Source: a virus. Taken from it: a DNA stretch of 64,000 nucleotides. Position 1 is the stretch's first letter, and every line of letters begins with the position of its first letter. Made by a program: the position numbers and the translations under genes. Below are positions 12,098 through 37,394 of the stretch, one piece after another. The stretch lies in IMG/VR virus record IMGVR_UViG_3300036857_000203, positions 1-64,000 of that record; one strand, 5' to 3'. The notes below the pieces were generated by a model. That model did no database searches. It was not told the DNA's origin and worked only from the letters and a program-made list of their open reading frames with translations.

Positions 12098-12336
12098 TCT
12101 GCCCATGCACACGCTTCCGCAGCATCAGTATCCCAGGCTGCGGGGTTATCAGGTGGGAGAGGACGGTGAGGTCACTGTTCATCTTTGTCTCGGCCTTCCT
12201 TGTTGTGGTCTTGATCTGCTGATCGAGCACCCGCCCACCATGACGGCGCTGGAACTCTACCGCATTGCGGGGGAGTTCGTTGCAATGCGGGAGCGAGTCA
12301 AGCAGCTACCGAGCTTCCAGAGCTGTCGGATACCCC

Positions 12337-14987: not shown

Positions 14988-15069
14988 GCCTGCCTCACCT
15001 CGCCGAGCCAAGCCACACCGAGGCCTGTCTTGCCGTGACGAGCCAAGCCGAGCCGAGCCGCGCCATGAA
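14988..15069 (-). ncRNA. Stand-alone GGC-NN guide unit B (14 pentamers plus GGCAGGC end)
   Basis: Intergenic minus-strand sequence AT GGC GC GGC TC GGC TC GGC TT GGC TC GTC AC GGC AA GAC AG GCC TC GGT GT GGC TT GGC TC GGC GA GGT GA GGCA GGC; same grammar as the main array. Confidence 0.8.
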
Positions 15070-20348: not shown

Positions 20349-21086
20349 ATGCTGATAAGGGACTGGTATCGGCAGCAGAGACCGCTGATGGAGGCGCACG
20401 CTCGGCAGCGTGAGCGGCTGAACTACGGCGCAGGCGGGCGGCTGTGGGGACCACACAGAGAGATAGCCGGGATGGAGGGCCAAGCCTCGCTGGCGTGTGC
20501 CACCGGCAGCGAGATTCAGATGATCGACTTCGCGCAGGGCGGCGACGGCGGCGTGGACGTCTGGCTGCTCCTGTTCTTTGATGGCGAGTACCACTGGATC
20601 AAGGTTGATGCGAAGGGCGTATGGAACAAGCCGGTCTACATGCTGATCCCGACCAGGGACCTCGTCCATCGGACTGAGCCGCTGACGTTCGATCCTGTTG
20701 GAGGCAGGCTCCAGGTCGGCGCAGTGGTTGCAAACACCATCTACGTCCAGGCCTATCGCCACCGGGGCCAGGATGGGAACGAGAACAACGTCGATCTCGG
20801 CCCCTGGCCAATCAACGGCTGGGCGTGGGGCCATGAGGTGATGAAGTACTCGGCGGATTGGTACAAGGGGAACAATAGGTACGTCCACATGGTGCCGTCC
20901 TGGGGCGAGGAGAGCGTGCTCCACCCCATGGAGGAGCTGATGGCGATGTACTGTGACCGGTGGCGCATGCAGAACCTTCGGGAGCGGGTCGCCATGTACT
21001 GCGATGACGTGACGCTACGTGGAGGATACGGGGGACAGCCCCCACATGGTGGTGGACGACCAACACAGGAGGCACATCATGCCTAG
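20349..21086 (+). CDS. Hypothetical protein, possibly a PD-(D/E)xK nuclease
   Basis: E..G..GE/Q..GDGGVDV..IKVDAKG motif. Confidence 0.5.
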   Translation: MLIRDWYRQQRPLMEAHARQRERLNYGAGGRLWGPHREIAGMEGQASLACATGSEIQMIDFAQGGDGGVDVWLLLFFDGEYHWIKVDAKGVWNKPVYMLIPTRDLVHRTEPLTFDPVGGRLQVGAVVANTIYVQAYRHRGQDGNENNVDLGPWPINGWAWGHEVMKYSADWYKGNNRYVHMVPSWGEESVLHPMEELMAMYCDRWRMQNLRERVAMYCDDVTLRGGYGGQPPHGGGRPTQEAHHA

Positions 21087-21384
21087 CGAATTATTCGACT
21101 CTGACAAGCTCATCGCATGGCTGCGCCAGCAGCCGCCCGACGAGGAATACACCTGGAGCGATCCGGTGTTCTGCCTGATGGGGCGCTACGTCACCGACGT
21201 GGGGAGGCCCAAAGACCTCTACGGCTATAGCGACATGCCGCACTATCACGAGATTGCCGAGACCAAGCCGCACACGTTCGGAGCAGCGCTCCAGCGGGCC
21301 GAGGCACTCAAGGCGCTGCCGGCACCCGCGCTGCAGATCGAGGACAAGAGCCGCGAGCTGGTGACGGTGGAAGCGGCGGGATGA
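21079..21384 (+). CDS. Hypothetical protein
   Basis: GGAGG RBS; LIAWLRQQPPDEEY..C..TFGAALQRA. Confidence 0.6.
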   Translation: MPSELFDSDKLIAWLRQQPPDEEYTWSDPVFCLMGRYVTDVGRPKDLYGYSDMPHYHEIAETKPHTFGAALQRAEALKALPAPALQIEDKSRELVTVEAAG

Positions 21385-21860
21385 ACTTCTGGGCGGACCT
21401 TCAGTACGAACCGGAAACCGGTAAGTTCTACCGGCTGAAGTCCGCTCGCAGCGTGAAGGCTGGAGATGAGGCTGGTTGCCTGAACCCCTCAACTCAGTAT
21501 TGGATCATCCGCGTCGGAGGGAGAAGTTATCGCCGTGGGCGATTGGCATGGCTTTATATGACCGGTCGCTGGCCGATCGCGCAGATTGATCACATCAATG
21601 GGGTAAAGACTGATGACCGGATCGAGAATCTCCGAGAGGCGACTAATTCACAGAACGCCTTAAACAAACGACGGACACGCCAGAACACATCAGGTTTCAA
21701 GGGCGTCACTTGGCATAAACGCACTCGCCGCTGGCATGCTCAGATCAACATCGGCGGCAAGAATAAGTACATCGGTAGTTTCCGGTCTCCCGAGGAGGCC
21801 CATGACGCTTATTGGCGGGCTGCGCAGGATGGTCACGGTGCGTTTGGGAGGAAAGAGTGA
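21381..21860 (+). CDS. HNH-AP2 homing endonuclease
   Basis: IDHINGVKTDDRIENLREAT..SGFKGVTW..WHAQI..YIGSF..EEAHDAY. Confidence 0.9.
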   Translation: MNFWADLQYEPETGKFYRLKSARSVKAGDEAGCLNPSTQYWIIRVGGRSYRRGRLAWLYMTGRWPIAQIDHINGVKTDDRIENLREATNSQNALNKRRTRQNTSGFKGVTWHKRTRRWHAQINIGGKNKYIGSFRSPEEAHDAYWRAAQDGHGAFGRKE

Positions 21861-23467
21861 AGGAACTCAGACCTTACCAAGAAGACGCCCTCCAGGCGAT
21901 CCGGCAGACGGTAGGCCAGGGGGTGAAACGTCTCGTGTGTCAATCACCTACTGGGTCAGGCAAGACGTTGCTCGCGGCAACGATCGTTGACGGCGCGCTG
22001 CGCAAGGGCAACCGGCTGTGTTTCACGGTGCCGGCGATCGACCTTGTCGATCAGACCGTGGAGATGTTCTACGCCCAGGGCATCAAGGACGTCGGCGTCA
22101 TCCAGGCTGACCACCGGATGACCAACTGGCAGATGCCAATCCAAGTCGCGAGCATCCAGACTATCCGCTCGCGCGGAATCTATCCCGAGGCCCAGGTCGT
22201 CGTCATTGACGAGTGCCACCAGTTGCACAAGGCGCACGTCAAGTGGTTGAGCGATCCTGACTGGCAAGCAGTGCCGTTCATCGGGCTCAGTGCAACTCCC
22301 TGGACGCGCGGCCTCGGGAAGCACTTCTCGTCCTTATTGGTGATGTCTACGACGAAAGAGCTGATCGAGGAGGGGTACTTATCCAGGTTCCGGGTGTTTG
22401 CGGCGGATCATCCTGATCTGAGCAATGTTCCGACCATGGGCAAGACCGGCGATTACAAGGAAGCGCCGCTGTCCACCGTGATGAGCCAGCAGCAGCTGAT
22501 GGCGAACGTGATCGAGACCTGGAGGGTGCGCCACAACGCTGACAAGACGCTGTGCTTCGCAGTTGATCGTGCGCACGCGAAGTCGCTGCAAGAGCGCTTC
22601 CTCGACGCTGGCATCTCATGCGCGTACCAGGACGCCAACACACCGAGCGCAGAGCGTGCAGAGATCAAGAGGAGATTCCATAGTGGAGATTATCGTGTGG
22701 TTTGCAGTGTCGGAACATTGTGCACGGGCGTCGACTGGGACGTCAGATGTCTCGTCTTGGCAAGGCCGACGAAGAGCGAAATGCTTTACGTGCAAATCAT
22801 TGGTCGAGGCTTACGAACGGCTGAGGGCAAGACTCACCTGCTTGTTCTCGATCACACGTCCACAACGGAGCGGCTCGGGCTGGTGACCGACGTTCACCAC
22901 GATAGCTTGTCGATGGGCAAGCTCGATGAGAATAAGGCTGCTCCGCGTAAGCCGCCGCTGCCTCGACCCTGTCCGCAGTGCAGCTGCCTGATGGCGGTCG
23001 GTGTACGAGTCTGCGAGGAGTGCGGCTTCGAGCGCAAGATCGTGTCGAAGGTCACCGAGAGAGACGGTCAGCTGGTGGAGTTCGATGGGACGTTTCGCAA
23101 GAAGGGCAAGACTGATCCCAAGTTGCTGCCGTATTCGTTCGCGGAGAAGATCAAATACTTTCAGCAGCTGCGCGGCTATGAGGTAATGCGTGGCTATCGG
23201 AAAGGTTGGGCCGCGAATCAATTCCGGGAGAAGTTCAATGAAGGCTGGCCCCCGTGGTCCTGGAACGATCTCGCACCAATGGCGCCCGGCCCCGAAGTCA
23301 CGTCCTGGATCAAATCCCGACTCATTGCATGGGCACAGAGTAAAGCTCGAACTGCTAGCGCTGCAGCTGGCACTCCACGGTCCGACAGCGGTAACACCCA
23401 GCGCAGTTCGTATTCTGGCGCGAAGCCCGCTGTGGCTGGAGACGAGACTACTCCTCCGTGGGAGTAA
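21857..23467 (+). CDS. Superfamily 2 (DExH) helicase with C-terminal zinc ribbon
   Basis: LRPYQ, SPTGSGKT, VIDECH, LSATP, GVDWD, QIIGRGLR, CPQC..CEECG. Confidence 0.92.
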   Translation: MKELRPYQEDALQAIRQTVGQGVKRLVCQSPTGSGKTLLAATIVDGALRKGNRLCFTVPAIDLVDQTVEMFYAQGIKDVGVIQADHRMTNWQMPIQVASIQTIRSRGIYPEAQVVVIDECHQLHKAHVKWLSDPDWQAVPFIGLSATPWTRGLGKHFSSLLVMSTTKELIEEGYLSRFRVFAADHPDLSNVPTMGKTGDYKEAPLSTVMSQQQLMANVIETWRVRHNADKTLCFAVDRAHAKSLQERFLDAGISCAYQDANTPSAERAEIKRRFHSGDYRVVCSVGTLCTGVDWDVRCLVLARPTKSEMLYVQIIGRGLRTAEGKTHLLVLDHTSTTERLGLVTDVHHDSLSMGKLDENKAAPRKPPLPRPCPQCSCLMAVGVRVCEECGFERKIVSKVTERDGQLVEFDGTFRKKGKTDPKLLPYSFAEKIKYFQQLRGYEVMRGYRKGWAANQFREKFNEGWPPWSWNDLAPMAPGPEVTSWIKSRLIAWAQSKARTASAAAGTPRSDSGNTQRSSYSGAKPAVAGDETTPPWE

Positions 23468-23593
23468 TCTGTTCACCGGGGCCGAGATCAACATCTTGAT
23501 GGGCGGAGTGCACCCCCATGGCTGTTGCTGCTGGGGGTGCATCCGTCAGTTACGACAGCGGGTGATAGCCCACCGTCGCAGGCTGGAGGCTAA

Positions 23594-24152
23594 GCCTGCC
23601 AAGCCCGGCCAGGACTGAACGCACCAAGCCAAGCCCGGCCCTGCCTTGCCTCGCCTCGCCAAGCCCTAGCTAGCCGGGCCAGGACTGCCACGCCAAGCCA
23701 AGCCCTGTCAGGTCCTGGCGTGCCGTGCCTTGCCGTGCCGTGCCTGCCGGGCCAAGCCGTGCCTGTCCGAGGCCTGCCGCGTCTTGCCGGGCCTAGCCCT
23801 GCCGGGCCTGCCGCGACATGCCGCGTCTTGTCAGGTCGGGACATGCCGGGCCATACCGCGCCCGCCTTGCCTCAACTGCCGCGACATGCCGAGCCTGGAC
23901 CTGCCATGTCCAGCCGTCCGAGCCGGGCCAATGCCACGCCTGCCGAGCCAAGCCAGCGTCGGGCCAAGGCATGCCGTGACATGTCATCCACGTAGATGAC
24001 GTGCCTGCCATGCCCCGCCTTGCCGCGCACCGCCGGGCCGAGCCTCGCCGGGCCAAGCCCCGCCGCACCGGGCCTGCCGGGCCGCGCCATGCCGAGCCAC
24101 GTCCCACCGGGACGCGCCACGCCAAGCCGCGCCGAGCCTGCGTTACCGTGCC
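23594..24152 (-). ncRNA. GGC-NN pentamer array: eight 59-70 nt guide-like units plus a 19-nt remnant
   Basis: The minus strand reads GGC-NN with 5-nt period (minor GGT/GTC/GAC/GCC variants). Register is reset by a 4-nt GGCA step. Units: 24075-24138, 24006-24074, 23941-24005, 23877-23940, 23809-23876, 23745-23808, 23686-23744, 23616-23685. Starts about 8 nt after the stop codon of 24161-24691. Confidence 0.85.
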
Positions 24153-24160
24153 TAAGACTT

Positions 24161-24691
24161 CTACCGTTGGGCCGCAGCCCTCGGTCTCTCCCCCGGCCGC
24201 CGACGCGGCGGCTGCGGGCGAGATGGCGGTTTCTTCTCGTCGTCTTTGCCAAGCTCATTCACGATGCTGTCGAGCCGGGCGTAGAACTCGCTTTCCAGTT
24301 TGGTTGTTCGCGCATGACCATGTGCATCGACCAGCAAGTTGCGGACTCGATCCATGAGCACTGCCAGGATGCGCGAGTTCTTCTCCTTCGTTGCACTCGC
24401 AACATCGACGTACGTGCCGACCGCCGACCTGGGATCGGGGTCGTGCCGATATCGCGGAAGCACGCGCGAGAGATCGATGTCGTTGATCTCGGGACGGGGA
24501 CAGCTACGGATGATCTCCTCGGCACGCGCCAAGAGATACCTTCGATGAACTCGCGCCGGGTCCCAATCGAACAACTTGTTCAACTCGCTGTTCTGATCCC
24601 TCCCCGCCTCCACGACATCGCGTGCGTTGATCGTGCCGTTACCGTCGCGCAGCTCATCGAGTGCGGTGATCTGCTCGGTCGTAAGATTCAT
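24161..24691 (-). CDS. Accessory protein of the RAMP-array locus (unknown function)
   Basis: Overlaps the RAMP stop codon by 4 nt. GTINARDVVEAGRDQNSELNKLFDWD..YLLARAEEIIR. Confidence 0.8.
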   Translation of the reverse strand: MNLTTEQITALDELRDGNGTINARDVVEAGRDQNSELNKLFDWDPARVHRRYLLARAEEIIRSCPRPEINDIDLSRVLPRYRHDPDPRSAVGTYVDVASATKEKNSRILAVLMDRVRNLLVDAHGHARTTKLESEFYARLDSIVNELGKDDEKKPPSRPQPPRRRPGERPRAAAQR

Positions 24692-25506
24692 GTGCTCGCT
24701 CCTGGTTGCTCGGGTTGATCGCTTGAACGAGAGCGCGTTACGGGATCGCGCCGCCGCATCACCTCAGCGTCGTACCAGCCCAGCAAGTCGGCGCTCTCTT
24801 CGTCAGCGAACGATGGATCATCGAGCGCTGCGAGCTGTGCCTCGCGCCCCTCTTTCTCGACAATGTCCATCCATTCGGGATGATCGTGGCTCACGACATC
24901 CCAGGAGCCGAAAGAGAATGCGCCGCGTTCCTGGCGCCCGTCGCCGACACCGACAATCATGCCGGCGTTCATCGCTAGATTGAGCACGTCGTCGAGCGTG
25001 ATCAGGTCGCGCACATAGCGAAAGCTCATGGAGCACGCCCAGCGCGGGAAGTAGGCGCGCGTGCGGATGTCGGGCGTCTTGGCGATGCCGGCCTGCCGCA
25101 CCATCGACATGTGCAGCTGCGGGATGCCGTACAGGAAGATCGTCGGCGTGGTTACGGTAATGAGCCGGCCCACTTCCGCTCGTGTTGCGCCCGGCGTGTC
25201 GACTGCCGCCTGGGCGAGCGCTTTCTTGATGCTGTTGCCGGGGAGGTGGACGGCGGCTGGCGCATCGGCGTCGCGGCAGCGATAGACCGAGGCGCGGAAC
25301 TCTTCGAGCGGATCGTGCTTGAGGGTGGCTGCGCGTGCTGCCCGGTTGGGAGCGCGTGGGGGGAGGAGTATCTGGCGCTTCGCCTTCTCGGTGAAGCGGT
25401 TCATCACGAGCGCGCTTGTGCCCAGGAGATGGAGAGTCGCGCCCACCATCTGCAATCGACTGATGAGCGGGCGCTCCGCACCAGTCTGCTTTGCCGCTTT
25501 CGCCAT
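24688..25506 (-). CDS. Cas7/Csm3-like RAMP-fold RNA-binding protein
   Basis: RAMP hallmarks: N-terminal strand ATLHLLGTSALVM, HLPGNSIKKAL (cf. IPGSSLKG of Csm3/Cmr RAMPs), a long insertion MVRQAGIAKTPDIRTR, and a C-terminal Gly-rich loop GMIVGVGDGRQERGAFSFGSW. Confidence 0.75.
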   Translation of the reverse strand: MAKAAKQTGAERPLISRLQMVGATLHLLGTSALVMNRFTEKAKRQILLPPRAPNRAARAATLKHDPLEEFRASVYRCRDADAPAAVHLPGNSIKKALAQAAVDTPGATRAEVGRLITVTTPTIFLYGIPQLHMSMVRQAGIAKTPDIRTRAYFPRWACSMSFRYVRDLITLDDVLNLAMNAGMIVGVGDGRQERGAFSFGSWDVVSHDHPEWMDIVEKEGREAQLAALDDPSFADEESADLLGWYDAEVMRRRDPVTRSRSSDQPEQPGAST

Positions 25507-25582
25507 ATTGAGGGTTCCTGTGATCGAGTGTATATAGAACAGGCGGATGCCTATCCAACGCAGACTATATCAGGAAACTACG

Positions 25583-25792
25583 ATGCACAAGCGGGAAGAG
25601 TCGGCGAACCTGAACGAGGGACTACGCGCCGCGATCGACGCTTGCGGTTCGCGCTATGCCCTGGCCAAGCGGCTCGGCCTGACACCGGTAGCAGTGCTTG
25701 ATTGGTGGCGCATCCCGGCGGACTTGGTGGTCGAGGTGGAGAGAGTATCGGGCGTGCCCCGCGAGAGGCTACGCCCGGAGCTGTACTACTAA
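25583..25792 (+). CDS. Cro/YdaS-like HTH regulator
   Basis: AIDACGSRYALAKRLGLTPVAVLDW..IP..VERVSGVPRERLRPELY; divergent from the RAMP gene. Confidence 0.85.
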   Translation: MHKREESANLNEGLRAAIDACGSRYALAKRLGLTPVAVLDWWRIPADLVVEVERVSGVPRERLRPELYY

Positions 25793-26337
25793 CGCCCGCG
25801 CAGGAAGCGCTCAGCCTCGCGACCGGTGAGCGGCGGCTTGCGCAGCTTGCCGGTCAGCGCGGCTTGCTTGTGCTCCTCACGCACCCTACGCTTCTCCTTC
25901 TCCACGAGCCGCCTCTGCTCGACAGTGGGAGCTTTGTTGTGACTGTTAGCGACGGCGTAGGCCGCCTCAGCGACATCCTTGGCGAGAGGGCTCCGCTTGA
26001 GATAGGTGGGAATCTCAAGCTCATCCAGCTGACCAGCAAGTGGTTTGTCGCCGGGCTTCTCCTGCACGACGGGCGCGTCGTTAACGTCGCTCCGATCCTC
26101 GGCTACATGCACGGCTGGACCCGGCAGCGGGTCCTTCGCTACGCCCGCATCCGGCACTGGACGGCCACAGAGCTTTGAAGCTTGCCGCAGCCTAAGCCGG
26201 TCGAGCGTCTTGCGCAGACCAGGAAGCTTGACCTCGGCATTCACCAGGGCCGCGAGCGCGCCGTTGCGTTGCATCTCCAGGCGAGCGACTTGGGCACGCA
26301 GAAGGCGGATGTCTCTTTGGAGCTTTGTCTCTTTCAT
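25789..26337 (-). CDS. Hypothetical protein
   Basis: MKETKLQ.. after CATGAAAGG and a strong promoter; contains LEIPTYLKR. Confidence 0.6.
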   Translation of the reverse strand: MKETKLQRDIRLLRAQVARLEMQRNGALAALVNAEVKLPGLRKTLDRLRLRQASKLCGRPVPDAGVAKDPLPGPAVHVAEDRSDVNDAPVVQEKPGDKPLAGQLDELEIPTYLKRSPLAKDVAEAAYAVANSHNKAPTVEQRRLVEKEKRRVREEHKQAALTGKLRKPPLTGREAERFLRGR

Positions 26338-26370
26338 GGTGTTACCTTTCATGTATCGCACTAGATAGGT

Positions 26371-26406
26371 AGTGTAGCACATCTGCAACACTATGTCAAG
26401 ATGGCA
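26371..26406 (-). promoter_or_regulatory. Sigma70-like promoter with overlapping operator
   Basis: TTGACA-17 nt-TACACT on the minus strand; TGTCAAGATGGCA at 26394-26406. Confidence 0.7.
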
Positions 26407-26512
26407 GATACCTATCTCAGTGGCATCTGACAGCCGCCCATTATTGCGATTACGCTGATGCAGATCGCCACCGCCAGGACGAGGATCGCCACCTCGCGCA
26501 TGGTGTAATGCC

Positions 26513-27097
26513 TCATCGGCCAACCCTCTCTGAGGCCGGCACCCAATGCGTGAGTGGCCACGGCACATTGCGCTGATCAGGATGATCACCCGGCCATCCG
26601 TTGCAGTGCCCGATCTCGTGCCGCAGCAGCAGACCAGTGTTCCAGCCGCGCGTACGCATCACCTCGTCCTCGACCAAATAGATCACGCAGCTCTTAGCGT
26701 TGTGACGGGCGCATGCCAGCATCTTTGGATTATAGACGTTGCATGCTGCGCGCAGCGCTTCGAACGTCGGCAGCATTATGATCGTCAGGTCGCCATCGTA
26801 GGGCTTGTCGTACTCAGGTGGCGGCAAGATCGGATACTGCGTCTGCGGCGGACGTGGTGCCGGCGCCAGATACCCCATGTCATTCGGATTGTGGGGTCGA
26901 TTGTTGGTGGGCTGGAGATCAGCCTTGGGCGCCGGGGGCGGTATGGGCACGACCTTGGAGGGCAGCGGCACGATCTTGGGAGCGGCTGTGATGTTGTTCA
27001 CGCGCTGGGGGTGGACCGGCGAACTGATGCTGATCACCCCCAGCGTTATTGCCGCCAGAGCAAGCGCGAACCAAGCTAGCTGCTTGTCGGTGAACAT
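26513..27097 (-). CDS. Secreted or membrane-anchored HExxH metallopeptidase-like protein
   Basis: N-terminal hydrophobic helix, Pro-rich linker, LLRHEIGHCNGWPGDH. Confidence 0.65.
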   Translation of the reverse strand: MFTDKQLAWFALALAAITLGVISISSPVHPQRVNNITAAPKIVPLPSKVVPIPPPAPKADLQPTNNRPHNPNDMGYLAPAPRPPQTQYPILPPPEYDKPYDGDLTIIMLPTFEALRAACNVYNPKMLACARHNAKSCVIYLVEDEVMRTRGWNTGLLLRHEIGHCNGWPGDHPDQRNVPWPLTHWVPASERVGR

Positions 27098-27271
27098 GTT
27101 GGACCTTTCATGCGTTACCTGTGAGGATTATCCCCACAGCGATGACGACGATGACGACAAAGATAGTTGCGCGTATAGATGTTCCCGCCGAGAACATCTA
27201 ATTCGGGCCGTTGTGTATGCGGTCGAATACCTGCCCCATTGTGTGGGTCTATGTGTTGAAGTGACGTCATT

Positions 27272-27487
27272 TCAGCCCAGCTGGCTCACGATCTGCTCGA
27301 ACTTCCGCTCGCTGGTGGTGAGCCGCATGATCACCAGGAGCCGCAGCAAGCGTGCTGCAGGCTCTGGGATGGTGGCGCCCTCGGCGTAACGGTAGGGCGT
27401 ACGACGCCCGAGACCGAGGACCTGGGCCATACGCAGATGCGTCCAGCCCAGGGTCTCTCGTGCATTACGGTATTCGCTCGTGGTCAT
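27272..27487 (-). CDS. XRE-type HTH protein
   Basis: EYRNARETLGWTHLRMAQVLGLGRRTPYRYAEG..IPEPAARLL. Confidence 0.8.
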   Translation of the reverse strand: MTTSEYRNARETLGWTHLRMAQVLGLGRRTPYRYAEGATIPEPAARLLRLLVIMRLTTSERKFEQIVSQLG

Positions 27488-27495
27488 GGTCTCCT

Positions 27496-27690
27496 CTAAT
27501 CTTCCATCAGTGCTGATCCAGGATCGACGTTGCCCTCGATGATGAAGCAGTCCTTGCGTGTCAGCGGCTTGCCGCCGTTGAACTCCAGGCTGATCGTTGA
27601 GCCTGGGAGCCAGACCTTGACCTCGCGGTCCAGGTCCTCGGGTTTGACTGCGTCGATGATCGTCCGCAGCTGTCGAGCGCTGAGGCTCAT
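27496..27690 (-). CDS. Hypothetical protein
   Basis: Coupled ORF in the leftward early operon. Confidence 0.5.
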   Translation of the reverse strand: MSLSARQLRTIIDAVKPEDLDREVKVWLPGSTISLEFNGGKPLTRKDCFIIEGNVDPGSALMED

Positions 27691-27918
27691 CGTCCTCTCT
27701 CCTTCAGAAACGCGATGGTGGCCGCAATCTCCGCAGCCCAGGCCTCCAGGTCGGCGATGGTGTGCGCGACGTTGGAATGCTGTCGCAGCGTCTCGGTGCG
27801 GATGTCCGCCAGCGAGAGCGGCAATGGCCTGTTCTCGGTGGGCTGCGATGGCGTCGGGACCGGCGGATCGCTCAGCAGCGGCCCGTGCTCCTGGATGGCG
27901 TCCTCCAGGGTGCTGATC

Positions 27919-28746
27919 TCACGCTTCTTGTGCTTGCGCTTCGCCATGGTCTTGCTCCTTTCTGAGTTGGGTTGAGACATAGTCGTGGTGGTCGAACGGG
28001 ATTACCGGAATGTTGTCGGCGAGCCCGTCCAGGTCGGGGCAGTCGCCGCCGATGTAGTTGGCGACCATGTGCCCGATGATCGCGCCCTGGTGGCGCTGGC
28101 GTAGCTGATAGGGCTTATCGGCGTCGGGCGGCAGCACGGTGAGCACATCGAAGAAGCTGTAGGACCCCCCCTTGTGCCGCAGCACGCCCACGGCAGTCAG
28201 TTCGGTGTTGGCGAGGCTGATCGACGTGTTCCGGTGCTTCTCGCTCTCGCGCATGATCATGCCGGCGAAGCCGCACATGGCGACCATGCCGCCGGCCTCA
28301 AAGATGTCGAGCTTGCTGCGCTCGGCAATGCCGCCCAGGGCGTGCCAGGAGAAGAACGCGAGCTTGGTGCGCTGAGCACTGAGCTTGCCTCTGCGCTGTA
28401 GCCGCATGACATAGGTGCGCACCATCACGCCATGCTCGCGGCCCGGGACCAGCGGATGCTTGTCCACCTCCCAGGTGAGTAGCTCCACGATGGCAGAGCG
28501 CTTGCGCTTGAAGTGCCCGTTGACGAAGCAGCAGCGCTCGCCCTGGGCGGCCTTGAGGCGCTGCACGCCGGCCATGAACTGGTCGGCAGCTTGCCTGGGG
28601 CCGCCCGTGATCGAGCCCAGGAACTTCTCCATGGCCTGGGTCCAGAGCGTGCAGCCCGGGGTGAGTATGCCGGCGCCCATCATCTGGCGTTCAGCCAGAT
28701 CGCGGGTGAGTTGCGCGATGAAGATGCGGCCGGCGGTGCTGATCAT
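27919..28746 (-). CDS. Hypothetical protein
   Basis: 275-aa ORF in the early operon. Confidence 0.6.
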   Translation of the reverse strand: MISTAGRIFIAQLTRDLAERQMMGAGILTPGCTLWTQAMEKFLGSITGGPRQAADQFMAGVQRLKAAQGERCCFVNGHFKRKRSAIVELLTWEVDKHPLVPGREHGVMVRTYVMRLQRRGKLSAQRTKLAFFSWHALGGIAERSKLDIFEAGGMVAMCGFAGMIMRESEKHRNTSISLANTELTAVGVLRHKGGSYSFFDVLTVLPPDADKPYQLRQRHQGAIIGHMVANYIGGDCPDLDGLADNIPVIPFDHHDYVSTQLRKEQDHGEAQAQEA

Positions 28747-29207
28747 CGCAGCATCCCCATGAAGCGGCCCTGCATCGCGTCGTAATCGTTCATGTGTAGC
28801 GGCGAGAGCGTCGCCGGCCCACGCTCGGGGCGCAGGATGAAGAAGTTCCCAGAGAGCACGTTTCCCCAGCGATCCTCGGCATTGATTATCAGCACCTCGC
28901 GCCGGTCAGGGTGCTCGCTCGGGCGCGGTCCCTCTTTCGCTTCGGTCATCGTGTTCACCGTGGCAATCCAGGCCTCGCAGATGAAGGCTAAGCGCTTCAC
29001 ATGCTTTGCCTGGAACATCATGCGCAGCCCGCGCTGGGTGATGTCCTTCTCCTCGTCGCTCGACCAGGGTGTGGCGATCAAGACGTGCTCATCATTGCCA
29101 TCGACGACATGCCACATCGGAAGAATCTCCCCGCTCTCGCCGAATATCCGCATGGCGTTCTCGGCAGCGTTGGCAAAGAAGTCTTCAAGCTCGGTCTTGG
29201 GGGTCAT
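28743..29207 (-). CDS. Hypothetical protein
   Basis: FICEAW..PSEHPDRREVL motif seen in phage early proteins. Confidence 0.65.
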   Translation of the reverse strand: MTPKTELEDFFANAAENAMRIFGESGEILPMWHVVDGNDEHVLIATPWSSDEEKDITQRGLRMMFQAKHVKRLAFICEAWIATVNTMTEAKEGPRPSEHPDRREVLIINAEDRWGNVLSGNFFILRPERGPATLSPLHMNDYDAMQGRFMGMLR

Positions 29208-29303
29208 GTCTCGCGTCCCTTCATGTTCTCCGGTAATCACGCCCGCCCCGGAAGCTCCTCAGCAAACAGGGCGGGCGCTTATCCGCTGGGAGCGGTCGGG
29301 GGA

Positions 29304-33516: not shown

Positions 33517-33544
33517 TGTCAGGTTCCTTTCATGCGTGTATAGC
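33516..33544 (+). promoter_or_regulatory. Putative promoter for guide unit C
   Basis: TTGTCA-17 nt-TATAGC; predicted start about 33550, immediately before the first GGC. Confidence 0.55.
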
Positions 33545-33551
33545 GGTTGAT

Positions 33552-33640
33552 GGCAAGGCAAGGCGCGGCAGGGCACGGCCCGGCGATACAGGGCTGGGCC
33601 CGGCACGGCGCGCCTCGGGGGGGGGTCATGCCCCCTCCCC
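33552..33640 (+). ncRNA. Stand-alone GGC-NN guide unit C (13 pentamers) followed by a G/C hairpin
   Basis: GGC AA GGC AA GGC GC GGC AG GGC AC GGC CC GGC GA TAC AG GGC TG GGC CC GGC AC GGC GC GCC TC, then G9-TCATG-CCCCCTCCCC. Confidence 0.8.
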
Positions 33641-36619: not shown

Positions 36620-37078
36620 ATGGCTAAGAGAACACGGTCTAAAGCCAGACCGAAACAAGCCGTAGTCCAGGCACCCGACGATGCACCCGCCCAAGTCGCT
36701 AGACGCCGCGCCAACGGCCAATGGCGGCCAGGGTATTCAGGCACGATGGGCACCGACGCGGCACGCGCACGGCGTCAACTGAATCTCTCGACCATCTCGG
36801 CCCTACAGTCCGCCTTCGACCGTTACGGTAGATCGGCCATCGAGAAGGTCGCGCGTCAGCAGCCCGCGATCTTCCTCAAGATGTTGGTATTGCTTGTCCC
36901 GCGCGAGCTTGAGATTACCCAGGCGCAGGGCCCGCGCGGGATGAGTGACGAGGCATTGGAGCAGGCTGTCCAGGCCATCGAGGGCTTCCTGGCCAAGCGC
37001 GCCGCCGGCCCTGGCGCCGACGCGCGGGTGATCGAGGCGCAGCCAGCGGCGGATGATCCATCCGCTGACAAGCCTTGA
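36620..37078 (+). CDS. Putative terminase small subunit (DUF5681-like)
   Basis: RRANGQWRPGYSG..G; AIEKVARQQPAIFLKML..PRE..MSDEALE. Confidence 0.6.
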   Translation: MAKRTRSKARPKQAVVQAPDDAPAQVARRRANGQWRPGYSGTMGTDAARARRQLNLSTISALQSAFDRYGRSAIEKVARQQPAIFLKMLVLLVPRELEITQAQGPRGMSDEALEQAVQAIEGFLAKRAAGPGADARVIEAQPAADDPSADKP

Positions 37079-37394
37079 TCCATAAGGGATATTCGGCGAA
37101 GTTCCCGTTCTGCCCATATCCTTACCCACACCCCAGGTCGCGACCCCACCCCAGCGCCGTTACCGTAATCCATTGATATTACGGGAGAACCGCGCGCCGC
37201 GCCACGCAGCCCCAGGGCAGGGCGCCCGGGCCCCCGAGGGGGGGTGGGGGGGGCGGCACAGAGAGCAGCTCATGGCTCAGGCCCCTCCCCCAAATCCCTC
37301 GCATTTCTCGGTCCCCGACCCACAACCAACTGATCTTACTATGATTTCGTCCGGGTTGCGCAGCAGACCCCCGGCCTTATTTCTGCGTACCTCC

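What the first reader, a model, noticed from the sequence alone, without database searches (positions are those of the whole stretch)
24075..24138. Array unit 1 encodes a match to the RAMP gene family itself
Plus-strand NN = GG GC AT GA AC CC GG GC AC AA GC GA, decoding to G-A-[IM]-[DE]-T-P-G-A-T-[KN]-A-[DE]. The RAMP gene has A-A-V-D-T-P-G-A-T-R-A-E at 25175-25209. That is 9/12 dinucleotides and 20/24 nt identical in gapped register. My rough equal-base binomial estimate is about 3e-9 per site, or about 4e-4 over both strands of the window; GC bias would raise this. It implies either an attack on the same system in a rival phage (mismatches protecting self) or weak autoregulation.
Basis: seen in the sequence. 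Interest (0 to 1): 0.9.

Follow-up and report, generated by a model that had tools for sequence, protein, structure and literature searches.

The report
Phage guide RNA aimed at rival VIPR genes
This 64-base unit is one guide RNA of a recently described phage weapon (VIPR) that reads DNA two letters at a time and skips every third, and it is aimed at the VIPR protein gene of related phages, an ordinary new example of a known kind.

Summary
Unit 1 (24079-24138 plus the 4-nt step 24075-24078) carries the twelve dinucleotides listed. Read as NNx, they match 25175-25209 (-) at 20/24. This is the only site above 16/24 in the window.

Chance is unlikely:
- 4 of 3000 permuted guides reach 20.
- 0 of 300 Markov surrogate genomes reach 20.
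- Only the 1-nt skip gives the hit.
- Only this one of 8 units has such a match.

Three of 120 homologues (P0002, P0003, P0011) read [AV]AIDTPGATKAE, which is 23/24 and better than self.

The system is already described in 2026 bioRxiv preprints as VIPR. It has a RAMP-fold Vipr protein, a vap partner, GGY-NN vrRNAs and a 1-nt skip rule aligned to wobble positions. The preprints also report vrRNAs that target other phages' vipr genes.

The 272-aa protein has a Cas7-like fold and matches SUSP1 Vipr by profile. The array is of the preprint's "staggered" type.

The verdict is a new member of a known kind. The only twist is a self-match of 0.83, above the 0.8 cutoff used in print.

First-stage notes of this scan had already flagged the same locus.

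The parts
24075..24138 (-). vrRNA unit 1. On the - strand it is twelve GGY-NN-type repeats (24138 down to 24079) followed by the 4-nt step GGCA (24078-24075). On its 5' side it is bounded by a degenerate 4-nt step CGCA (24142-24139).
   Evidence: Sequence; pentamer parse; dinucleotides verified. Twelve repeats lies within the 9-16 range given for vrRNAs in the preprint.
25175..25209 (-). Target-like site inside the resident vipr gene. It is the sense strand of codons A100-E111 (AAVDTPGATRAE) and matches unit 1 at 20/24 informative positions, with the skip base at every wobble position. The mismatches are at dinucleotide 1 (GG vs GC), 3 (AT vs GT) and 10 (AA vs CG).
   Evidence: The conserved family motif AxAALDxPGATKAQIGRL is seen in alignment A1.
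24688..25506 (-). vipr: a 272-aa RAMP-fold (Cas7-like) protein with the G-loop motif GVGDGRQERG.
   Evidence: No Pfam, NCBIfam or PADLOC hit; phrog_4652, unknown function. AF2 pLDDT 87.9. Foldseek top hits are Csm3/Cmr4/type VII Cas7, E from 2.7e-5. VIA-align Z 8.8-7.1 to Csm, Cas7-11, I-D and IV Cas7. hhalign to SUSP1 agp039: probability 96%, E 3e-9, 51 columns.
24161..24691 (-). vap-like accessory gene (176 aa). It overlaps the vipr stop codon and ends 19 nt before the array's first 4-nt step (24142).
   Evidence: tblastn finds relatives directly downstream of the vipr homologue in 34 of 82 loci. AF2 pLDDT 83.6. No PDB fold match at E<=1e-3. No profile similarity to SUSP1 vap1.
23594..24142 (-). 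Staggered vrRNA array. It holds about 110 GGC-NN pentamers on the vipr strand, broken into units by 4-nt GGCA steps (a -1 phase shift).
   Evidence: GCC phase analysis; DP parse; TRF period 5. The preprint's fig. S18 legend describes staggered arrays with 1-nt overlapping vrRNAs.

Best explanation
The window is part of a 72-kb soil phage genome that carries a VIPR (Viral Interference Programmable Repeat) system. It consists of vipr (24688-25506, -), a vap-like gene (24161-24691, -) and, on the same strand, a staggered array of GGC-NN repeats (24142-23594).

Unit 1 is the first vrRNA after the operon. By analogy with the published SUSP1 and P. fulva systems, one Vipr protomer would bind each GGC and twelve protomers would form a filament. 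The twelve exposed NN dinucleotides would pair with DNA while every third target base is skipped.

The NN code of unit 1 spells the sense strand of the conserved vipr motif A-I-D-T-P-G-A-T-K-A-E, with the skipped base on each wobble position. Synonymous changes in the target therefore cannot spoil the match.

The most likely job is to bind and transcriptionally silence the vipr gene of related competitor phages, disarming their VIPR. The resident allele escapes in part because it reads V for I and R (codon CGA) for K. Together with a first-position mismatch shared by all alleles seen, this gives 4 mismatches in 24.

Shown here: the anatomy, the fold, the gene-array association, the match and its statistics, and the better match to other alleles.

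Inferred from the preprints: RNP formation, dsDNA binding, repression, and that 4 mismatches weaken binding.
For: The match:
- 20/24 is the only hit above 16 in the window.
- It appears only under the 1-nt skip rule.
- 4 of 3000 permuted guides and 0 of 300 surrogate genomes reach it.
- Only 1 of 8 units of the array has any above-chance match in its own genome.

Better non-self alleles:
- Of 120 homologues, 3 score 23/24 (P0002, P0003, P0011; 53-64% identical proteins), 3 score 22 and 11 score 21.
- Permuted guides never exceed 19 against the same set (0 of 300 reach >=20).
- For the residues A, V, I, D, T, P, G, K and E the first two codon letters are fixed, so these scores follow from the protein sequences.
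- In 82 fetched loci the best hit of unit 1 always falls on the homologous vipr motif, at 14-21/24.

System identity:
- Cas7-like fold and a profile match to SUSP1 Vipr.
- Same-strand GGC/GGT/GGA-NN arrays lie next to the homologue in 84 of 122 loci; an opposite-strand array was found in 1 of the first 83 sources and in 2 of the 39 later loci.
- The partner gene is syntenic in 34 of 82 loci.
- L058 and L063 share one identical 13-repeat unit between unrelated neighbours, which points to unit-level turnover.

A second unit of the same array behaves as a guide:
- The 9-dinucleotide core of unit 2 has 38 exact hits in IMG/VR.
- 36 of them are in frame on an xPGESGNPAG motif near the start of small ORFs.
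- 27 of the 38 reach >=0.8 over all 13 dinucleotides.
- An equally long core of unit 1 gave 1 hit, outside any vipr gene and as expected by chance.

Literature:
- Filament and triplex structures (10.64898/2026.04.26.720927, abstract and passages).
- vipr-targeting solo vrRNAs, with self scores lower than non-self scores for vrRNA-targeting vrRNAs (10.64898/2026.10.15.759431, section 8).
Against: - No allele with 24/24 was found. Exact searches of IMG/VR for the 11-dinucleotide core found nothing.
- The 9-dinucleotide core of unit 1 found one site outside any vipr gene. That site scores 20/24 by my own count and its skip bases fall on wobble positions of the opposite strand.
- The DNA of the three 23/24 homologues could not be fetched. 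Their phages, hosts and co-occurrence with this phage are unknown.
- The self-match of 0.83 lies above the >=0.8 cutoff that the preprints use to call natural targets. Their own guides gave no self-hit at that cutoff. Self-binding therefore cannot be dismissed.
- Among 171 distinct runs of >=10 repeats from 84 loci, no other unit matches any of the 122 vipr genes above shuffle level. vipr-targeting is therefore rare in this clade and rests here on one unit.
- Across all arrays, the NN composition resembles codon positions 1-2 better in the gene-strand orientation (Pearson 0.63) than in the orientation of this match (0.19).
- Staggered arrays were not among the architectures the preprint confirmed by sRNA-seq.
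- No RNA data exist for this phage.
Confidence: 0.7

Rival explanations
1. Autoregulation. The imperfect 20/24 match is itself the functional site. The Vipr-vrRNA1 filament binds inside its own vipr gene and dampens transcription of the vipr-vap-vrRNA operon as negative feedback, possibly in addition to hitting rivals.
For: The identity of 0.83 passes the >=0.8 threshold used for natural targets in both preprints. The site lies in the operon that makes the RNP. VIPR represses from either strand and needs no PAM.
Against: Other alleles match better than self (23/24 against 20/24). None of the other 170 runs from 84 loci carries a match to any vipr gene above shuffle level, so this is not a conserved design of the family. 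The preprints report no self-hits at >=0.8 for their guides, and lower self than non-self scores where relatives are targeted. In the preprint's reporter assay, perturbing NN pairing abolished silencing, although tolerance to 4 mismatches was not described in what I read.
Confidence: 0.15
2. Chance resemblance. A GC-rich guide happens to resemble a GC-rich Ala/Gly/Thr/Pro-rich coding stretch next door.
For: The per-unit probability is only about 1e-3, or about 1e-2 after 8 units. Many windows were read in this scan. One site outside any vipr gene in IMG/VR also reaches 20/24, by my count. No other unit of this array has an in-genome match.
Against: The three mismatched dinucleotides are not random. 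Two of them (AT, AA) are exactly what the closest homologues encode (I, K), which lifts the match to 23/24. By contrast, 0 of 300 permuted guides reach 20 on the same 120 proteins. The hit exists only at skip 1 and only in codon register. It also lies in the one gene family known to be targeted in this way.
Confidence: 0.05
3. Evolutionary leftover. The unit was inherited or recombined in from a phage for which this vipr allele was foreign, or the resident vipr was swapped later. The guide is now neither used against rivals nor against self.
For: Units move as cassettes between arrays. The self allele differs by only two conservative residues from the 23/24 alleles.
Against: The twelve repeats are intact and in phase, at the position nearest the operon. 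The identical sequence is found in contigs of a second soil sample (record 11, 0 differences), so there is no sign of decay. This is weak evidence.
Confidence: 0.08

Closest known systems
VIPR systems (Vipr + vap + vrRNA), type II of Escherichia phage SUSP1 and a Pseudomonas fulva prophage (bioRxiv 10.64898/2026.04.26.720920 and 10.64898/2026.04.26.720927)
   Same: A phage-borne two-gene operon with a RAMP-fold protein. The GGY-NN tandem repeats lie on the same strand, 9-16 per guide. Targets are matched by the 1-nt skip rule with the skip on wobble positions. There is a profile match of the G-loop region to SUSP1 agp039. SUSP1's own downstream region shows GGT-NN repeats.
   Different: There is no conserved 3' tail or pseudoknot between units. 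Instead the units abut through 4-nt GGCA steps, the preprint's 'staggered' architecture, which was not confirmed by sRNA-seq there. The protein is longer (272 aa against 195 aa). The accessory gene is unrelated to SUSP1 vap1. The constant triplet is GGC in a 63% GC phage. Which of the seven types it belongs to could not be decided, because the type tables are in supplements I could not see.
vrRNAs that target other VIPR systems: the P. fulva clade and SUSP1-family solo vrRNAs aimed at vipr (bioRxiv 10.64898/2026.10.15.759431, section 8)
   Same: A guide whose NN code matches the vipr coding sequence of relatives at identity >=0.8. The resident copy scores lower than the foreign one.
   Different: Here the guide sits in a VIPR-positive phage of a distant clade. 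It targets the middle of the gene (codons 100-111), whereas the preprint describes early codons and the gene end. The self score (0.83) is still above the published cutoff.
Class 1 CRISPR Cas7 backbones (Csm3, Cmr4, type VII and IV Cas7)
   Same: RRM-based RAMP fold with G-loop and thumb. One protomer binds per fixed number of guide nucleotides, with periodic interruption of pairing.
   Different: The period is 5 nt, with 3 sequestered and 2 pairing, rather than 6 nt with 5 pairing. There is no repeat-spacer array and no cas1, cas2, cas5, cas6 or cas10 nearby. The sequence models give no hit.
TRAP-type ring proteins binding (G/U)AG-NN repeats (recalled, not tested)
   Same: A constant triplet plus a 2-nt spacer, in about 11-13 repeats per unit.
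   Different: In TRAP the NN are meaningless spacers. Here the NN carry a target code, and the protein has a RAMP fold. I considered this early and dropped it.

Membership tests
VIPR system | Vipr protein: a minimal RAMP with RRM core, G-loop and thumb | tested here: met
   AF2 model pLDDT 87.9. Foldseek top hits are all Csm3/Cmr4/Cas7, E from 2.7e-5. VIA-align Z 8.8, rmsd 3.5 A over 137 residues to 9g9a_G, with further Cas7 chains down the list. The GVGDGR G-loop is invariant in A1. hhalign to SUSP1 agp039 gives probability 96%, E 3e-9, but over only 51 columns.
VIPR system | vrRNA: at least 4 (typically 9-16) tandem GGY-NN units next to vipr on the same strand | tested here: met
   Unit 1 has 12 units. 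The array has about 110 pentamers on the vipr strand. The same association is seen in 84 of 122 loci.
VIPR system | Two-gene vipr-vap locus | tested here: met
   A 176-aa gene overlaps the vipr stop. It is syntenic in 34 of 82 loci. Its vap class is unknown: there is no fold match and it is not vap1-like.
VIPR system | Natural targets matched by the 1-nt skip rule, with skip bases on wobble positions | tested here: met
   Unit 1: only skip 1 gives 20/24, in codon register, and 23/24 to three homologues. Unit 2: 36 of 38 exact IMG/VR hits are in frame on xPGESGNPAG.
VIPR system | Expression and processing of vrRNAs, RNP formation, dsDNA binding and repression | not testable with these tools
   No RNA run holds the locus. 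Function is inferred from the SUSP1 and P. fulva experiments.
VIPR type II (SUSP1-like) | Each vrRNA ends in a conserved structured 3' tail (a pseudoknot in the SUSP1 clade) | tested here: not met
   Units abut through 4-nt GGCA steps with no intervening tail. SUSP1's tails are visible. This fits the preprint's staggered arrays instead.
CRISPR-Cas (class 1) | A repeat-spacer array together with cas genes such as cas1/2, cas5, cas6 or an effector large subunit | tested here: not met
   No such repeats were found. No Pfam, NCBIfam or PADLOC hits for the two genes of the locus, and no cas-related Pfam hit among the 10 ORFs of 20349-29240 scanned. Rfam found nothing in 23000-26000.

The most novel reading that the evidence does not exclude
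The 0.83 self-match is not a tolerated accident but a tuned site. A VIPR-positive phage would keep one deliberately imperfect guide against its own vipr gene. The same vrRNA would then fully silence close rivals (0.96) while giving graded negative feedback on its own vipr-vap-vrRNA operon. This would be a self/non-self rheostat set by two conservative residue changes (I to V, K to R with the CGA codon). It would also be the first case of VIPR self-regulation, and evidence on how many NN mismatches the filament tolerates.
Probability: 0.12. Interest if true: 0.55.

Novelty: new member of a known kind. Interest (0 to 1): 0.3.

Why it matters
It was, however, published as VIPR in preprints from April to October 2026, so neither the mechanism nor the idea of guides aimed at rival vipr genes is new.

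What this locus adds:
- A clean example from an uncultivated, GC-rich soil phage of a distant clade.
- A 'staggered' array, the architecture that the preprint did not validate by RNA sequencing.
- A guide that sits in a VIPR-positive genome and scores 0.83 on its own gene, above the 0.8 cutoff used in print to call targets.

That makes it a convenient natural test case for mismatch tolerance and self/non-self discrimination in VIPR. The survey here also shows the gene-array pair in 84 of 122 loci. These come from prophages of Proteobacteria, Actinobacteria, Chloroflexi, Planctomycetes and Verrucomicrobia, and from cluster F mycobacteriophages. In one of those phages the array is annotated as a protein gene.

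Tried and rejected
1. A TRAP-like or scaffold reading, with a constant triplet plus meaningless NN spacers. I held this until the homologue alleles and the literature showed that the NN carry a code.

2. Protein-coding reading of the array. No ORF spans it, and 5-nt periodicity with -1 steps is not a coding signal.

3. Tweety gp54 'tetrapeptide repeats' (PMC2884959, passages read). These are 12-bp coding repeats and are unrelated.

4. Global test for gapped matches of 239 distinct runs against 2.3 Mb of loci.
- 6-dinucleotide seeds showed no excess at skip 1 (175 against 164.5 +/- 13).
- 7-dinucleotide seeds showed a mild excess (20 against 10.5 +/- 3.6).
- The windowed scan excess (87/14/1 hits at 17/18/19 of 20, against 34-55/2-5/0 in 4 shuffles) was due to window unit 1 (47 of 102 hits).
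- The rest looked like noise.
- So these local loci give no independent support for other guides. The true targets are probably elsewhere.

5. NN composition against codon usage. The gene-strand orientation fits codon positions 1-2 better than the orientation of this match. This was uninformative, and I report it as evidence against.

6. L006 run 12245-12324 against the 3' end of vipr in L078 and L074. It scores 18/20 locally but 24/32 (0.75) over its full length. Rejected.

7. The best hit is 24/40 at 23126-23184, with P = 0.08. Not supported.

8. Exact IMG/VR searches. The 11-dinucleotide cores of units 1 and 2 gave 0 hits each. The 9-dinucleotide core of unit 1 gave 1 site outside any vipr gene (L122).

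9. The metagenome scan for close relatives returned only 41-43% homologues.

10. tblastn against named phages gave only Gordonia phages and one cyanophage.

11. Partner protein: no PDB fold match.

12. Sequencing runs: no RNA holder is listed. The contigs laid of the three DNA soil runs showed no listed difference. Pieces of run X2 cover 23919-24213 and 25134-25600 with 0 other letters.

13. Literature. The searches found nothing on the pentamer arrays. Searches found the VIPR preprints. The preprint 10.64898/2026.10.21.760802 was seen only in the search listing.

14. Supplements were not opened. The preprints' tables of loci, types and targets (tables S2-S3, data S3-S4, fig. S15, Supplementary Tables 13-18) may already list this clade, or similar vipr-directed guides in VIPR-positive phages.

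Full report
**What is there**

The region 23594-24142 is about 550 nt of 5-nt periodic sequence. It reads NNGCC on the + strand and GGC-NN on the - strand, and it is interrupted by 4-nt steps (TGCC on +, GGCA on -) that shift the phase by -1. The finding's coordinates, 24075-24138, are one such step plus twelve pentamers.

Directly upstream on the - strand lie two overlapping genes, 24688-25506 (272 aa) and 24161-24691 (176 aa). The window is the first 64 kb of a 72,435-bp single-contig phage genome. A helicase and an HNH endonuclease converge on the array from the other side. The DNA is held by three soil metagenome runs.

**The observation**

In NNx register, the twelve dinucleotides match 25175-25209 (-) at 20 of 24 positions. 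This is the sense strand of codons A100-E111 (AAVDTPGATRAE) of the 272-aa gene, with every skipped base on a wobble position. It is the only site above 16/24 on either strand of the window.

Controls:
- 4 of 3000 order-permuted guides reach 20 in the window, as do 2 of 3000 guides drawn from the array's own dinucleotides.
- 1 of 400 permuted guides reaches 20 against the whole genome.
- 0 of 300 first-order Markov surrogate genomes reach 20.
- Skips of 0, 2 or 3 bases give at most 17.
- Of the 8 units with at least 7 repeats, only this one has an above-chance match in its own genome. The others have P from 0.08 to 1.0.

I collected homologues of the 272-aa protein. There were 201 at E<=1e-3 among 8000 scored candidates, and 120 were listed. 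The matched stretch lies in a conserved family motif with consensus AxAALDxPGATKAQIGRL.

I then scored the 120 listed proteins through the first two codon letters of each residue:
- 3 reach 23/24: P0002 (VAIDTPGATKAE), and P0003 and P0011 (AAIDTPGATKAE).
- 3 reach 22/24. One of these, P0001, contains Arg, so its score is an upper bound.
- 11 reach 21/24.
- Permuted guides never exceed 19 on the same set; 0 of 300 reach 20.

Two of the three dinucleotides that mismatch the resident gene (AT and AA) are therefore exactly what its closest relatives encode (I and K). The resident gene has V and R, with Arg written CGA, which mismatches both letters. No 24/24 allele was seen.

In 82 fetched loci, the best hit of unit 1 always falls on the homologous motif, at 14-21/24.

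**What the system is**

The 272-aa protein has no Pfam, NCBIfam or PADLOC hit. A confident AF2 model (pLDDT 87.9) matches only CRISPR RAMPs:
- Foldseek: Csm3, Cmr4, type VII Cas7, with E from 2.7e-5 and 44 hits at E<=1e-3.
- VIA-align: Z 8.8 to 7.1 for Csm, Cas7-11, and type I-D and IV Cas7.

Homologue-bearing loci from IMG/VR, metagenomes and GTDB genomes carry same-strand GGC-, GGT- or GGA-NN arrays within about 2 kb of the gene in 84 of 122 cases. An opposite-strand array was detected in 1 of the first 83 sources and in 2 of the 39 later loci. The hosts include:
- Alpha- and Betaproteobacteria
- Nocardioides
- Anaerolineae
- Planctomycetes
- Verrucomicrobia
- cluster F mycobacteriophages, where Donkeykong gp49 is 30% identical (E 1e-13) and sits next to such an array

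The 176-aa partner is syntenic in 34 of 82 loci. Arrays turn over unit by unit: L058 and L063 share one identical 13-repeat unit between unrelated neighbours.

**It is already known**

[quoted passage not shown] I read its outline, Results, methods sections 20 and 27, and further passages. It describes VIPR systems as follows:
- A phage-borne RAMP (Vipr) and an accessory gene (vap).
- vrRNAs of 9-16 GGY-NN repeats.
- Recognition of dsDNA by the NN only, with one target base skipped per repeat and the skip falling on wobble positions.
- Transcriptional repression, with natural targets in competing phages and satellites.
- 'Staggered arrays' in which neighbouring vrRNAs overlap by 1 nt. This is what the GGCA steps are. 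That architecture was not among those confirmed by sRNA-seq.

A companion preprint (10.64898/2026.04.26.720927; abstract and passages) gives the filament and R-loop-triplex structures, with 5 RNA bases per 3 DNA bases.

A third preprint (10.64898/2026.10.15.759431; outline, sections 8, 17 and 25, and passages) reports solo vrRNAs that target vipr at identity >=0.8. It also reports that, for vrRNA-targeting vrRNAs, self-match scores lie below non-self scores.

As a direct link, the SUSP1 gene agp039 (L124 28474-29061, -) matches my family profile at 96% probability and E 3e-9, over 51 columns around the G-loop. Its downstream region shows GGT-NN repeats with tails. Its vap is unrelated to the partner here.

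**A second unit supports the reading of the array as working guides**

The 9-dinucleotide core of unit 2 (24010-24074) has 38 exact matches in IMG/VR. Of these, 36 lie in frame on an xPGESGNPAG motif near the N-terminus of small ORFs. Over all 13 dinucleotides, 27 of 38 score >=21/26. A core of equal length from unit 1 gave a single hit, outside any vipr gene.

**Mechanism proposed for unit 1**

Twelve Vipr protomers load on the twelve GGC triplets. The exposed dinucleotides pair with the sense strand of vipr codons 100-111 in related phages (0.96 identity to the I/K allele). The filament then blocks transcription of the rival's vipr-vap operon.

The resident allele scores 0.83. Its mismatches fall on repeats 12 and 10 at the vrRNA 3' end and on both letters of repeat 3. 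Whether that is enough to spare self is not known. In the preprint's reporter assay, perturbing NN pairing abolished silencing, but I found no mismatch series in the text I read.

The self score exceeds the 0.8 cutoff at which the preprint found no self-hits. I therefore keep autoregulation as a live minor alternative.

**Against my reading**

- No perfect allele was found.
- No other of 171 runs in 84 loci targets any vipr gene above shuffle level.
- The global scans of local loci gave no signal beyond unit 1.
- There is no expression evidence.

**Verdict**

The phenomenon is a new instance of a kind described in 2026 preprints. Its interest is modest. It lies mainly in the staggered architecture and in the 0.83 self-match, which makes this a natural test of mismatch tolerance.

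Noticed in passing
window 24010-24074 (- strand unit 2): The 9-dinucleotide core of unit 2, read as NNx, has 38 exact hits in IMG/VR. Of these, 36 are in frame on an xPGESGNPAG motif near the start of small ORFs, a putative small-terminase/DUF5681-like motif (that name is recalled, not tested). 27 of the 38 score >=21/26 over the full unit. The full 11-dinucleotide core had 0 hits.
   Followed up: partly
window 14990-15064 (- strand GGC-NN, 15 repeats) and 33523-33631 (+ strand GGC-NN): Two further short GGC-NN arrays lie far from the vipr locus. They may be solo vrRNAs like those described in the October 2026 preprint. Their targets were not examined.
   Followed up: no
window 23970-24005: A short inverted repeat (GTCATC ... 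GATGAC) interrupts the pentamer pattern in the middle of the array. It could be a terminator for the convergent helicase operon or a vrRNA structural element.
   Followed up: no
L001 2996-3339 (Mycobacterium phage Donkeykong, record about 36894-37237) and L002 2997-3227 (Brocalys): Cluster F mycobacteriophages carry the same kind of array with TGCC steps, immediately upstream of a Vipr homologue (Donkeykong gp49). In Donkeykong the array is annotated as the protein gene gp48. Brocalys lacks a block of about 110 nt of it.
   Followed up: partly
L058 4590-4670 and L063 2330-2405: One 13-repeat unit flanked by GGCA steps is 100% identical between two arrays whose neighbouring units are unrelated, and L058 has an extra distal unit. 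This indicates cassette-like gain and loss of units.
   Followed up: partly
L048 9701-9912 and 11247-11551; L062 6382-6470; L065 11278-11346: Some loci use GGA rather than GGY as the constant triplet, and many use GGT. The preprint mentions alternative consensus repeats.
   Followed up: no
L116-L120 (Phycisphaerae, Chthoniobacterales, Opitutaceae, Gemmatimonadaceae MAGs): Homologues as distant as 22-27% identity still have same-strand GGC/GGT-NN arrays beside the gene.
   Followed up: no
L122 2162-2199: This is the single exact IMG/VR hit of the unit-1 9-dinucleotide core. It lies antisense to the first codons of a 143-aa ORF of a low-GC phage, with skip bases on wobble positions, and scores 20/24 overall by my count. 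About one such hit is expected by chance.
   Followed up: partly
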